A stretch of 64,000 nt of DNA. It comes from Rikenella microfusus (lineage in GTDB: Bacteria; Bacteroidota; Bacteroidia; Bacteroidales; VadinHA17). Where the stretch lies: positions 26,288 through 90,287 of the forward strand of contig DZBJ01000002.1 of NCBI GenBank assembly GCA_022736275.1, given 5' to 3'. Below, piece after piece: positions 54,301-55,239 of the stretch (its first letter is position 1; each line of letters begins with the position of its first letter). The position numbers were made by a program, and so were the translations under genes. The notes below the pieces were generated by a model. It ran no database searches and was not told where the DNA came from. It saw only the letters and a program-made list of their open reading frames with translations.

Positions 54301-55239
54301 CTATTGCCTCCCCTGCAACCTGGCTGCTTCGCTAAAATGATCCACCGGATCATTTCTTAACGCTCGCCCCTCTATTGCCTGATCCCTGGTCCATTTCCAT
54401 ACTCCAATTATCGCCATTCCAAAGTAGACCAGAAAAAGCATGGCGGTCGGATACAATCCCATGACCAGGTACAGGATTACGGCGATTGCGTTGGCCACAA
54501 TCCATATATACCACTGCTCAAGGTATCTTTTTGTCAGCATCCATGTTGCCACAACCGAGAGTGAGGTTATCAGTCCGTCCCACATCGGCACCGGTGAGTC
54601 TGTATGCCTGTTAAGCAAAAACCAGAGCAATCCCCACAGCATCAATGCTGTTAACAGGCATAGAAGCGCCGTCTTCCTGCCAATCGTGGCCACATCCGTT
54701 CCTGATTCCAAACGCTGCGCCACTGACGCTCCTTTGTCGGTCAGCGCCTTCGGCCTGTGCTCTGAGTCCTGAGCCACTGACGCTCCTTTGTCGGTCAGCG
54801 CCTTCGGCCTGAGCCCTGAGCCACTGACGCTCCTTTGTCGGTCAGCGCCTTCGGCCTGTGCACTGAGTCCTGCGCCACTGACGCTCCTTTGTCGGTCAGC
54901 GCCTTCGGCCTGATCCCTGTGCTCTCCCGCTGTAGCGGGACTGCGTCGCTTCGCTACTTGTGTGCCATGCGCCCTCCCGCTTTCGCGGGACTGCGTCGCT
55001 TCGCTCCTTGTGTGCCATGCATGCCATCCGTAAATGCTTATGACAAGGTAGTATCCCTGCAGACCCATGTTGGCATAGAGACCATTATGGCAGAAAACGT
55101 AGATGTAGACTGCTGAGGTGATAATACCCAGAGGCCAGAGCAGAATGTTCCGTCTGATCTCAAGCAAGACATAGGCTATACCCGTTACGGCGCCGAAGAG
55201 CTCAACGATATTCTCTAAAAACCATCCTGTCAACATCAT
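54301..55239 (-). CDS. PnuC-family vitamin transporter (thiamine-type, PnuT-like) with ~100-aa repeat-encoded loop insertion
   Basis: The N-terminus ..FGAVTGIAYVLLEIRRNILLWPLGIITSAVYIYVF..GLQGYYLVISIYGWHAW.. and C-terminal half ..WDGLITSLSVVATWMLTKRYLEQWYIWIVANAIAVILY.. are PnuC-like. The middle is hydrophilic repeat sequence. Operon context (TPP riboswitch, TPK) argues for thiamine. Confidence 0.75.
   Translation of the reverse strand: MMLTGWFLENIVELFGAVTGIAYVLLEIRRNILLWPLGIITSAVYIYVFCHNGLYANMGLQGYYLVISIYGWHAWHTRSEATQSRESGRAHGTQVAKRRSPATAGEHRDQAEGADRQRSVSGAGLSAQAEGADRQRSVSGSGLRPKALTDKGASVAQDSEHRPKALTDKGASVAQRLESGTDVATIGRKTALLCLLTALMLWGLLWFLLNRHTDSPVPMWDGLITSLSVVATWMLTKRYLEQWYIWIVANAIAVILYLVMGLYPTAMLFLVYFGMAIIGVWKWTRDQAIEGRALRNDPVDHFSEAARLQGRQ
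54719..55020. repeat. composite tandem repeat inside the pnuC-like ORF (4 x 39-nt unit A, 2 x 47-nt unit B)
   Basis: Unit A, gccactgacgctcctttgtcggtcagcgccttcggcctg, starts at 54719, 54773, 54820 and 54874. Unit B, ctcccgct(gta/ttc)gcgggactgcgtcgcttcgct(a/c)cttgtgtgccatgc, starts at 54924 and 54974. Both carry short inverted repeats (ctgac..gtcag; tcccgc..gcggga). Confidence 0.9.

What the first reader, a model, noticed from the sequence alone, without database searches (positions are those of the whole stretch)
54719..55020. Composite hairpin-bearing tandem repeat inserted in frame in the PnuC-type transporter, with the same unit translated in two different frames
Four copies of a 39-nt unit start at 54719, 54773, 54820 and 54874, giving periods of 54, 47 and 54 nt. 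Two copies of a 47-nt unit (period 50) follow. Together they occupy ~300 bp in the middle of an otherwise typical PnuC gene. Each unit has an internal inverted repeat, like REP/MITE-type elements.

Because one period is 47 nt, copies 4 and 3 are read as AEGADRQRSVSG whereas copies 2 and 1 are read as PKALTDKGASVAQ. The ORF nevertheless stays open for 312 codons and rejoins the PnuC C-terminal half in frame. The insertion falls after ..YGWHAWHTR, between TM helices, so the transporter may tolerate a ~100-aa hydrophilic loop.

Three readings are possible: a recent repeat invasion of a coding region, a domesticated linker, or a silently inactivated gene.
Basis: seen in the sequence. Interest (0 to 1): 0.6.

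Follow-up and report, generated by a model that had tools for sequence, protein, structure and literature searches.

The report
Repeat elements translated inside thiamine transporter
A thiamine-transporter gene of an uncultured Bacteroidales bacterium carries about 300 bases of short dispersed repeat DNA in one internal loop; the repeats are read as protein in different frames, a bacterial "junk DNA inside a gene" case of a known type in a new lineage.

Summary
Four exact 39-nt A units lie at 54719, 54773, 54820 and 54874, with periods 54/47/54. Two ~50-nt B units follow. All sit in frame in a 312-aa PnuC/PnuT gene (54301-55239, minus strand). That gene belongs to a TPP-riboswitch / TonB-receptor / PnuT / thiamine-pyrophosphokinase operon.

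A and B are not gene-specific. Both occur in other uncultured Bacteroidales: between genes, just after stop codons, and in frame in other genes. They are flanked by GCNCAGG-type heptamers.

The same loop is hypervariable across orthologues, from 20 to 163 aa by my definition. It holds at least four element families plus heptamer arrays. Unit B is read in all three frames.

B cores are 89-98% identical between genomes whose pnuT third codon positions are only 46-54% identical. Conservation is therefore at the nucleotide level, not the protein level. The transmembrane parts are under purifying selection (dN/dS 0.08-0.14).

The insert's sense strand has 9.7% T. It has no stop in the gene frame and encodes hydrophilic, disordered peptide.

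One otherwise identical assembly has one A unit instead of four (a 155-nt deletion) and is frameshifted. This is either real instability or assembly collapse.

Verdict: REP/RPE-like selfish repeats tolerated in a permissive cytoplasmic loop. New variant of a known kind; moderate interest.

The parts
54301..55239 (-). pnuT (PnuC-family vitamin transporter) CDS, 312 aa, carrying the insert between residues W75 and E178
   Evidence: ORF list. PF04973 E=5.5e-52, matched in two stretches. 4QTN PnuC matches both halves. The identical protein is found on three other contigs.
54969..55012 (-). Unit B, copy 1 in gene order. Core AGCGAAGCGACGCAGTCCCGCGAAAGCGGGAG, read as RSEATQSRES.
   Evidence: Hairpin TCCCGC-GAAA-GCGGGA.
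54919..54962 (-). Unit B, copy 2 in gene order, read in a different frame as AKRRSPATAGE
   Evidence: The 50-nt period shifts the frame by 2.
54874..54912 (-). Unit A, copy 1 in gene order, read as AEGADRQRSVSG
   Evidence: Exact match; translation.
54820..54858 (-). Unit A, copy 2 in gene order, read as AEGADRQRSVSG
54773..54811 (-). Unit A, copy 3 in gene order, read as PKALTDKGASVAQ after the 47-nt period
54719..54757 (-). Unit A, copy 4 in gene order, read as PKALTDKGASVAQ
54758..54873 (.). Spacers between the A units at 54758-54772, 54812-54819 and 54859-54873. Each is one or two GCNCAGG-type heptamers; the one-heptamer difference gives the 54 versus 47 periods.
   Evidence: Sequence. TRF 7-nt row at 54808-54827. 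Heptamer-like motifs are 10-fold enriched next to A/B copies in all loci.
54309..54368 (-). Element D, encoding the C-terminal tail GRALRNDPVDHFSEAARLQGRQ. Hairpin AATGATCC/GGATCATT. Flanked by the 11-nt direct repeat CCTCTATTGCC at 54298-54308 and 54369-54379.
   Evidence: The same element sits in the loop of orthologue L037 with a compensatory stem change.
54216..54296 (.). Intergenic 9-nt and 7-nt tandem repeats between pnuT and the thiamine pyrophosphokinase gene
   Evidence: TRF.
57723..57818 (-). TPP riboswitch at the head of the operon
   Evidence: Rfam RF00059, 65.7 bits, E=1e-11.
55239..57680 (-). TonB-dependent outer-membrane receptor gene, upstream in the operon
   Evidence: Pfam Plug and CarboxypepD_reg.
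53584..54210 (-). Thiamine pyrophosphokinase gene, downstream in the operon
   Evidence: Pfam TPK_catalytic and Thi_PPkinase_C.

Best explanation
The ~305-nt insert is a cluster of two families of short (about 40-45 nt) dispersed repeat elements, A x4 and B x2. They are separated by heptamer filler of GCNCAGG type. The cluster sits in the loop that joins the first three-helix bundle (TM1-3) to the linker helix (TM4) of a riboswitch-controlled thiamine transporter, PnuT. That loop is probably cytoplasmic.

The elements behave as nucleotide-level, REP/RPE-like selfish or neutral DNA.
- They occur in other genomes between genes, after stop codons, and in frame in other genes.
- They grow locally by duplication or unequal recombination between exact copies. 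Examples are the 101-nt higher-order duplication, the 50-nt B duplication, and gain or loss of a heptamer.

They are tolerated here for three reasons.
1. The site is structurally permissive and is hypervariable in the whole clade.
2. The sense strand is T-poor (9.7% T), so stop codons are rare.
3. Every sense frame encodes hydrophilic, charged, low-complexity peptide that is predicted disordered.

Selection for a working transporter then keeps only alleles whose total length restores the frame.

**Shown:** the anatomy, dispersal, hypervariability of the loop, multi-frame reading, purifying selection on the transmembrane parts, and nucleotide-level conservation of unit B.

**Inferred:** that the protein is made and transports thiamine, the cytoplasmic location of the loop, and how the elements move. 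Plausible routes are recombination between heptamer arrays or an unidentified transposase.
For: - **Dispersal of B.** The exact 20-mer core is found in about 12 Bacteroidales/Rikenellaceae MAG loci. These comprise pnuT loops (L007, L012, L018, L020), sites after stop codons or between genes (L008, L009, L011, L014, L017, L019), and in-frame sites in a Methyltransf_24 gene (L016, L021).
- **Dispersal of A.** It occurs at 11 metagenome loci (some duplicates of one another). These include intergenic AT-rich DNA, the same loop of a divergent PnuC (L029, both frames), and a small membrane protein with A followed by B (L035).
- **Hypervariable loop.** Loop length is 20-163 aa over 120 homologues. 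It contains B in three frames, families C and D, and heptamer-coded peptides.
- **Nucleotide-level conservation.** B cores are 89-98% identical between genomes whose pnuT third positions are 46-54% identical (P from 1e-6 to 1e-13).
- **Hairpin kept.** 92% of stem cells are paired, with 4 compensatory cells.
- **Selection on the host gene.** dN/dS is 0.08-0.14 on the transmembrane parts.
- **Composition.** There are 0 stops in the gene frame. Sense frames are 9-12% hydrophobic; antisense frames are 33-35% hydrophobic with 5-9 Cys and 2-5 stops.
- **Structure.** AF2 predicts 7 TM helices, and residues 104-183 have pLDDT below 50.
- **Reproducibility.** The array is identical in two assemblies (L001, L002) that differ from the window by 9-11 SNPs.
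- **Operon.** TPP riboswitch, TonB receptor and thiamine pyrophosphokinase flank the gene. This matches the Bacteroides thetaiotaomicron arrangement (PMC5613172).
Against: - **Low copy number.** There is no other A or B copy in the 64-kb window. Only two exact B cores occur in a 491-kb contig. This is unlike classical REPs.
- **Over-representation in pnuT.** A third of exact-core B hits in GTDB species representatives lie in this one loop. Random insertion would not produce that.
- **Unexplained conservation.** The very high nucleotide conservation of B across saturated synonymous divergence is not explained by neutrality. It needs either constraint or repeated conversion or re-insertion.
- **No mobility evidence.** No transposase, terminal inverted repeats or clear target duplications were found for A or B.
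- **No expression evidence.** Expression and transport activity are untested.
Confidence: 0.6

Rival explanations
1. Nucleotide-level functional module. The B element (and perhaps A) would be a conserved DNA or RNA motif: a 25-nt invariant arm plus a hairpin recognised by a protein or RNA. Possible roles are mRNA processing or stability, translation pausing inside the polycistronic thiamine mRNA, or a recombination or binding site. On this view the pnuT loop hosts it because it acts on this operon.
For: - B cores are 89-98% identical across genomes whose synonymous sites are saturated.
- The 5' arm AAGGAGCGAAGCGACGCAGTCCCGC is nearly invariant, while the loop nucleotides vary and the stem shows compensatory changes.
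- A third of exact-core hits in species representatives lie in the pnuT loop.
- A and B share ACAA(A)GGAGCG.
- Many extragenic copies lie just after stop codons in the sense orientation.
Against: - Many close orthologues lack the element entirely, or carry unrelated families C or D at the same site.
- Copy number varies from 0 to 6.
- Some intergenic copies are antisense to their neighbouring genes (L009, L017).
- There is no Rfam match.
- Covariation rests on only 4 cells at 2 pairs.
Confidence: 0.15
2. Contingency (phase-variation-like) locus. The repeat periods (7, 47, 50 and 101 nt) are not multiples of three. Gain or loss of units by slippage or recombination would therefore toggle PnuT between in-frame (ON) and frameshifted (OFF) states within a population.
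For: - Assembly GCA_973317435.1 (L038) is 100% identical to the window over 6.3 kb, apart from a precise 155-nt deletion.
- That deletion equals 54+47+54 nt and leaves one A unit.
- It splits pnuT into 157-aa and 94-aa ORFs.
- The four A cores are 100% identical, which makes them good recombination substrates.
- Heptamer arrays occur in the loop of orthologues, for example 13 heptamers in L037.
Against: - Collapsing four exact repeats to one is a typical assembly artefact.
- The four-copy allele is identical in two assemblies (L001, L002) that differ from the window elsewhere by 9-11 SNPs.
- A deletion to one copy is not readily reversible.
- The heptamers are imperfect.
- No intermediate alleles with 2 or 3 copies were seen.
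Confidence: 0.12
3. Domesticated protein linker. The hydrophilic loop would have a protein-level role, such as a cytoplasmic tether, a regulatory region or an interaction region, and would be maintained for that reason.
For: - The loop is expanded in about 60% of the closest 120 homologues, always in frame.
- AF2 extends the TM3 helix through the B-coded residues 78-97 with pLDDT around 80.
- The composition is consistently charged and disordered.
Against: - The same DNA unit is read in two or three frames in different copies and orthologues, so no peptide sequence is conserved.
- Length ranges from no insert to about 143 extra residues.
- Unrelated element families substitute for one another.
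- Many close relatives have no insert.
Confidence: 0.08
4. Artefact or dead gene. The array would be misassembled, or the gene would be a pseudogene whose open frame is fortuitous.
For: - One assembly shows a different copy number with a frameshift.
- L019 has a scaffold gap inside a B array.
- T-poor sequence has few stops, so an open frame across the insert alone is not very improbable.
Against: - The 351-nt region is identical in three other contigs, two of them from slightly different strains.
- The downstream half rejoins in frame.
- A collapse of one 101-nt or 47-nt period would break the frame.
- The transmembrane parts show strong purifying selection.
- Dozens of orthologues with different inserts are all in frame.
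Confidence: 0.05

Closest known systems
Rickettsia palindromic elements (RPE), the classic case of selfish palindromic DNA inserted in frame into protein-coding genes
   Same: - Short hairpin-forming dispersed repeats are found both between genes and in frame inside unrelated genes.
- The encoded peptides are hydrophilic and sit where the fold tolerates them.
- The host genes stay under selection (PMC10969869, PMC3733652).
   Different: - RPEs are about 100-150 bp, occur in Rickettsia, and each encodes a conserved peptide in one frame.
- These units are about 40-45 nt and occur in uncultured Bacteroidales.
- They are tandemly arrayed with heptamer spacers and read in two or three frames.
- At least four families are concentrated in one loop of one gene family.
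Intragenic REPs (GTAG- and CGTC-tagged palindromic repeats; Di Nocera et al. 2013, PMC3733652)
   Same: - They are 20-40-bp stem-loops, mostly downstream of ORFs.
- Some lie inside genes as singles, dimers or clusters that encode 20-82 aa.
- CGTC-type repeats are reported in Bacteroidetes.
   Different: - Unit B has a 6-bp stem rather than 8-9 bp.
- Its GACG lies 3 nt 5' of the stem on the sense strand, so there is no 5'-CGTC-stem geometry and no CCA tail.
- Copy number appears low.
- No RAYT link is known.
- A long invariant single-stranded arm and heptamer flanks are not REP features.
Cyanobacterial STRR heptamer repeats and small dispersed repeats (from my own knowledge: Mazel 1990; Elhai 2008. 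The Elhai paper could not be read here.)
   Same: - Tandem heptanucleotide arrays occur in intergenic DNA.
- Very small dispersed elements are nested in or next to them.
- This window has heptamer strings at 41349-41471 and heptamer flanks around A, B and D.
   Different: - The phylum and the sequences differ.
- Here the heptamers and elements are also translated.
- No direct comparison was possible.
Simple-sequence contingency loci (phase variation by repeat-number change within coding regions)
   Same: - The repeat periods are not divisible by three and lie inside a coding region.
- Two alleles of otherwise identical sequence differ by whole repeat units, and one is frameshifted.
   Different: - The units are long (47-101 nt) and few.
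- Reversibility and population heterogeneity are unproven.
- The variant may be an assembly artefact.

Membership tests
PnuC/PnuT vitamin transporter (host gene) | Match to the NMN_transporter family (PF04973) over both triple-helix bundles | tested here: met
   E=5.5e-52 in two stretches separated by the insert. 4QTN PnuC aligns to residues 15-86 and 205-285.
PnuC/PnuT vitamin transporter (host gene) | Thiamine context: TPP riboswitch, TonB-dependent receptor and thiamine pyrophosphokinase in one operon | tested here: met
   RF00059 at 57723-57818, 65.7 bits. Plug-domain receptor and TPK genes. Same layout as in Bacteroides thetaiotaomicron (PMC5613172).
REP (repetitive extragenic palindrome, GTAG/CGTC-tagged) | Short, stable palindromic stem-loop | tested here: inconclusive
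   B: 6-bp stem, z -2.4 to -2.7, 92% paired over 29 copies with 4 compensatory cells. A: not more stable than shuffles, z -0.5 to -0.8.
REP (repetitive extragenic palindrome, GTAG/CGTC-tagged) | GTAG or CGTC tetranucleotide directly at one end of an 8-9-bp stem, with a short CCA-like tail | tested here: not met
   In the alignment of 29 B copies, GACG lies 3 nt 5' of a 6-bp stem on the sense strand. There is no CCA tail. Criteria are from PMC3733652.
REP (repetitive extragenic palindrome, GTAG/CGTC-tagged) | High copy number (over 100 per genome), mainly extragenic | tested here: not met
   No other copy in 64 kb. Two exact cores in a 491-kb contig. No complete genome was available, so this is a lower bound.
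REP (repetitive extragenic palindrome, GTAG/CGTC-tagged) | Cognate RAYT (Y1 transposase) gene flanked by the repeats | not tested
   Only 64 kb of this genome and 5-20-kb loci of the others were available, and I did not annotate them for transposases.
RPE-type in-frame palindromic elements | The same element is inserted in frame in several unrelated genes as well as between genes | tested here: met
   PnuT loops, a Methyltransf_24 gene (L016, L021), a small membrane protein (L035) and intergenic sites.
RPE-type in-frame palindromic elements | Element of about 100-150 bp encoding one conserved peptide | tested here: not met
   The units are about 40-45 nt. B is read in three frames and A in two.
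MITE | Terminal inverted repeats and target-site duplication | tested here: inconclusive
   A and B have no terminal inverted repeats beyond the internal hairpin; their flanks are heptamers on both sides. D is flanked by an 11-nt direct repeat, which could be a duplication or simply the heptamer array it sits in.
Contingency locus (repeat-mediated phase variation) | Repeat-number alleles within one lineage that switch the reading frame | tested here: inconclusive
   A four-copy in-frame allele (window, L001-L003) versus a one-copy frameshifted allele (L038), with 100% identical flanks. Assembly collapse cannot be excluded.

The most novel reading that the evidence does not exclude
The pnuT loop array would not be passive junk. 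It would be part of an undescribed Bacteroidales repeat system: heptamer arrays act as landing pads for a set of about 40-nt elements that share a conserved arm (AAGGAGCG / CGAAGC motifs) recognised by a dedicated factor. In pnuT, these elements would either be maintained for an RNA- or DNA-level role in the thiamine operon, or serve as a repeat-number switch that turns the transporter on and off.
Probability: 0.15. Interest if true: 0.75.

Novelty: new variant of a known kind. Interest (0 to 1): 0.5.

Why it matters
This case shows that in-frame colonisation of genes by tiny repeat elements, best known from Rickettsia, also occurs in free-living anaerobic Bacteroidales.

It offers an unusually clean natural experiment. 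In one loop of one conserved transporter, the same DNA unit is translated in all three frames. Several element families replace one another at that site. The nucleotide sequence is conserved far beyond the host gene's silent sites.

That contrast separates DNA-level from protein-level constraint. It raises the testable question of what keeps these 40-nt units so similar: mobility, gene conversion or function.

Practical consequences follow.
- Such arrays change length between near-identical assemblies.
- They can split genes in MAG annotations.
- They inflate protein-family diversity with meaningless low-complexity segments.

Tried and rejected
- **Unit A in species representatives.** An exact 36-mer of unit A against GTDB species representatives gave 0 hits. 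The species representative evidently lacks this exact array.
- **Viral contigs.** Scans for the A and B cores gave 0 hits. There is no sign of a phage origin.
- **Insert peptide search.** Searching the 5.8-billion protein set with the insert peptide found only the truncated ORF of L038. Short low-complexity peptides cannot reach significance there, so this did not give a census of host genes.
- **Rfam.** At E <= 1 over 53000-58600, only the TPP riboswitch was found. The units match no described RNA family.
- **Length differences in neighbouring syntenic genes.** I suspected repeat insertions in GrpE, PGA_cap and TPK. The differences are N-terminal start-site or annotation differences, not repeats.
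- **Apparent ~100-nt indel between L001 and the window near 61180.** This is a scaffold gap of Ns.
- **Comparing intergenic heptamer arrays between assemblies.** The look-up of a neighbouring gene product was not on record, probably because I chose the wrong start codon.
- **Elhai 2008 paper on small dispersed repeats.** It is not held in the library.
- **Intein, intron or translational bypass readings.** I considered these and dropped them. The ORF is simply open and there is no matching RNA or protein signature.
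Full report
**1. The observation**

The region 54715-55020 holds the only strong tandem arrays in the 64-kb window.

- **Unit A.** The 39-nt unit GCCACTGACGCTCCTTTGTCGGTCAGCGCCTTCGGCCTG occurs exactly four times, at 54719, 54773, 54820 and 54874. 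None is expected in shuffles.
- **Periods.** The periods are 54, 47 and 54 nt. TRF also reports a 101-nt higher-order repeat at 96% identity.
- **Spacers.** The spacers are one or two GCNCAGG-type heptamers, so the 54 versus 47 difference is exactly one heptamer.
- **Unit B.** Two copies of a ~50-nt unit follow at 54915-55014.
- **Host gene.** Everything lies in the minus-strand ORF 54301-55239 (312 aa). It matches the PnuC family PF04973 in two stretches separated by the insert.
- **Frames.** The two B copies are also read in two frames (RSEATQSRES and AKRRSPATAGE). Unit A's third sense frame contains TGA.
- **Hairpins.** Unit B has a significant hairpin: TCCCGC-N4-GCGGGA, z = -2.4 to -2.7. 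The inverted repeat in unit A is no more stable than in shuffled sequence.

**2. Gene context**

- A TPP riboswitch (RF00059, 65.7 bits) lies at 57723-57818 on the minus strand.
- It is followed by a TonB-dependent receptor gene (55239-57680), the PnuC-family gene, and a thiamine pyrophosphokinase gene (53584-54210).
- This is the outer-membrane receptor / PnuT / TPK thiamine-uptake operon described for Bacteroides thetaiotaomicron (PMC5613172).
- The closest named homologues are from uncultured Bacteroidales.

**3. Position in the protein**

- The Neisseria mucosa PnuC structure (4QTN) aligns to residues 15-86 and 205-285.
- AF2 with an 88-sequence alignment predicts seven TM helices: 3-29, 34-52, 56-97, 188-212, 219-236, 240-260 and 263-295. 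Residues 104-183 have pLDDT below 50. Overall confidence is modest (mean pLDDT 65, pTM 0.39).
- The insert (residues 76-177) therefore follows TM3, directly after the conserved YGWxxW. It precedes the linker helix that joins the two three-helix bundles.
- By the positive-inside rule the loop is cytoplasmic. The short loops RRN and KRY and the C-terminus lie on the same side. This is an inference.
- The insert has 18 K+R, 12 D+E, 55 of 102 residues G/S/A/T/Q, and only 10 hydrophobic residues.

**4. Is the array real?**

- The exact 312-aa protein and a 100% identical 351-nt insert region occur on three other contigs: GCA_020721245.1, GCA_020719085.1 and JGI 3300000228.
- Two of these contigs differ from the window by 9 and 11 substitutions over 14-17 kb. 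They are therefore not the same assembly.
- A fifth assembly, GCA_973317435.1, is 100% identical over 6.3 kb except for a precise 155-nt deletion. That equals 54+47+54 nt, or three A periods.
- The deletion leaves one A unit, shifts the frame, and splits the gene into 157-aa and 94-aa ORFs.
- This is either genuine repeat instability or the expected collapse of exact repeats during assembly. I cannot tell which.
- Loss of a 47-nt or 101-nt period would break the frame. An intact frame in the four-copy form is therefore some evidence that this copy number is correct.

**5. The units are dispersed elements, not gene-specific sequence**

*Unit B.* The 20-nt core AGCGAAGCGAYGCAGTCCCG occurs at 18 loci in one-genome-per-species GTDB contigs.
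- About 12 are in Bacteroidales or Rikenellaceae MAGs. The rest are isolated matches in GC-rich genomes without the rest of the element.
- Four lie in the same pnuT loop: L007, L012 (= L006), L018 and L020.
- Others lie immediately after a stop codon or between genes: L008, L009, L011, L014, L017 (two tandem copies) and L019.
- Others are two in-frame copies inside a Methyltransf_24 gene: L016 and L021.

*Unit A.* The core CTGACCGACAAAGGAGCGTCAG occurs at 11 metagenome loci.
- Some lie in AT-rich intergenic DNA.
- L029 carries it in the equivalent loop of a more divergent PnuC, again in both frames.
- L035 carries A followed by a B-like unit, in frame in a small membrane protein.

*Flanks.* Copies are typically flanked on both sides by GCNCAGG / GGRGCAN heptamers. 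Such motifs are ten times denser in the 30-nt flanks than in the background.

*Negative results.* Neither unit occurs elsewhere in the window or in viral contigs. Nothing in Rfam matches them.

**6. The loop is a hypervariable repeat site across the clade**

- Among the 120 best homologues, the loop as I delimited it is 20 aa in the basal state. The median is 42 aa and the maximum 163 aa, in the 339-aa protein P0077.
- About 60% of these homologues carry expansions.
- The expansions contain unit B in all three frames: RSEATQSRES, ERSDAVPRKRE and AKRRSPAKAGE. All three occur within the single protein P0001, which has three DNA copies in L004.
- Unit A peptides appear in both frames (P0018, P0109).
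- Family C reads ARRASGIVEPGDP and reaches six copies. Its DNA unit contains the hairpin GAAGCTC-GTA-GAGCTTC followed by AGGAATTGTAG.
- Family D reads RALRNDPVGHLSEGASLQGRQ.
- Pure heptamer arrays are read through three frames as 7-aa repeats: AQSAELR, QQSAVGS, EHRAQGT. L037 has 13 heptamers in a row.
- Family D also forms the C-terminal tail of the window's own PnuT (about 54309-54368). There it is flanked by the 11-nt direct repeat CCTCTATTGCC. Its stem differs from the L037 copy by a compensatory change (ATGATCC/GGATCAT versus ATGACCC/GGGTCAT).
- In L006 the same B variant occurs both in the loop and at the 3' end of pnuT, each time right after a Trp codon.

**7. Conservation is at the nucleotide level**

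- The transmembrane parts of pnuT are 68-75% identical in DNA between the window and seven orthologues.
- Third positions are 41-54% identical, and dN/dS is 0.08-0.14 where dS can be estimated. The gene is under purifying selection and silent sites are near saturation.
- The 44-nt B units of the same genomes are 89-98% identical to the window's copy (77% for the most diverged). Intergenic and methyltransferase copies are 80-95% identical.
- With the host's third-position identity as the neutral expectation, P ranges from 1e-6 to 1e-13.
- The units are read in different frames, so this cannot be protein-level selection.
- The 5' arm AAGGAGCGAAGCGACGCAGTCCCGC is nearly invariant. The loop nucleotides vary. 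The stem is paired in 92% of cells, with four compensatory cells at two pairs (CG to UA, AU). This is suggestive but limited.
- Copies within a genome share genome-specific variants (L006, L017, L019, and the window's two copies). This indicates local duplication or conversion.
- The cause of the between-genome conservation remains unexplained. Candidates are constraint, repeated re-insertion, or conversion from other copies.

**8. Why the insert is tolerated**

- The sense strand of the insert is 9.7% T and 37.5% G, against 27.6% T in the rest of the gene.
- It has 0 stops in the gene frame, and 2 and 3 stops in the other sense frames.
- All sense frames are 9-12% hydrophobic and rich in charged residues.
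- The three antisense frames have 2-5 stops, 33-35% hydrophobic residues and 5-9 cysteines.
- This explains why all clearly genic copies (PnuT, methyltransferase, L035, L029) are in this orientation. Some intergenic copies are not.

**9. Interpretation**

- *Best supported.* This is a cluster of REP/RPE-like dispersed hairpin elements and heptamer filler, lodged in a structurally permissive loop (inferred to be cytoplasmic). It grew by local duplication and was filtered by selection for an intact frame. The transporter probably still works.
- *Not excluded: a nucleotide-level function of unit B.* This is supported by its conservation and by its over-representation in this loop.
- *Not excluded: repeat-number switching of the reading frame.* This is supported only by the single frameshifted assembly.
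- *Unlikely: a protein-level 'domesticated linker'.* The multi-frame reading and the replacement by unrelated families argue against it.
- *Unlikely for this allele: misassembly or a pseudogene.*

**10. Relation to what is known**

- In-frame insertion of small palindromic repeats is established for Rickettsia RPEs. It is also established for intragenic GTAG/CGTC REPs in several phyla, including clusters that encode 43-82 aa (PMC3733652, PMC10969869, PMC3184786).
- The present elements work like these but fail the formal REP criteria I could test: tag geometry, stem length and copy number. They also fail the RPE criteria of size and a single conserved peptide.
- Four features were absent from the literature I could search:
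  - the heptamer embedding;
  - the tandem organisation;
  - the three-frame reading;
  - the concentration of at least four families in one loop of one transporter family.
- I therefore rate this a new variant of a known kind, of moderate interest.

Noticed in passing
window 41349-41471: The intergenic region between two minus-strand genes consists of four consecutive heptamer tandem arrays: AGTCGCC x3.4, AAGAATT x3, CTATTGC x3.3 and AAGACTG x4.7. The CTATTGC/GCAATAG heptamer also flanks element D at the pnuT 3' end, and it forms the pnuT 3' end in L037. The arrangement resembles cyanobacterial STRR repeats.
   Followed up: partly
window 57723-57818 (-): TPP riboswitch (RF00059, 65.7 bits) upstream of the TonB-dependent receptor gene. 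It defines a riboswitch / receptor / PnuT / TPK thiamine-salvage operon.
   Followed up: yes
window 54298-54379 (-): The last ~22 residues of PnuT (GRALRNDPVDHFSEAARLQGRQ) are encoded by a fourth repeat element (D) with its own hairpin, bracketed by an 11-nt direct repeat. The stop codon lies in the second repeat copy. The insertion therefore extended the ORF.
   Followed up: partly
window 54216-54296: The pnuT-TPK intergenic spacer consists of 9-nt (AAAGTCAGT) and 7-nt (AATCGAA) tandem repeats running up to the TPK start codon.
   Followed up: no
L038 2502-3285 (GCA_973317435.1): An assembly of the same organism has pnuT called as two ORFs (157 and 94 aa) because of a 155-nt repeat-unit deletion. 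The 94-aa fragment is the representative of the 90% protein cluster that contains the full-length protein.
   Followed up: yes
L006 10790-10830, L008 5480-5620, L036 5060-5100, L037 6790-6830: Downstream of pnuT and other genes there is a recurrent motif: a GC hairpin followed after 6-10 nt by A(A/T)TTGTAG or TATTGTAG. The family C coding repeats have the same layout. This may be another dispersed element family or a regulatory motif.
   Followed up: no
units A-D (window 54719-55012, 54309-54368; L036 4250-4750): All four element families contain CGAAG(C/G): A GCCGAAGGCGC, B GCGAAGCGAC, C CCGAAGCTCG, D GCGAAGCAGC. A and B also share ACAA(A)GGAGCG, which includes a Shine-Dalgarno-like AAGGAG. 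This could reflect common ancestry, a shared recognition motif, or composition.
   Followed up: no
L036 6082-9468: In the genome encoding the longest loop (P0077), a DDE transposase gene, a Fic gene and a MazE-like gene are inserted between TPK and the amidase gene, which are adjacent in the other syntenic loci.
   Followed up: no
L016 5618-6703 (-), L021 4885-5841 (-): Two Rikenellaceae-type MAGs carry two tandem B units in frame, N-terminal to the Methyltransf_24 domain of an orthologous methyltransferase. L016 additionally has a run of GGGCGCA/GGGCGAA heptamers upstream of them.
   Followed up: partly
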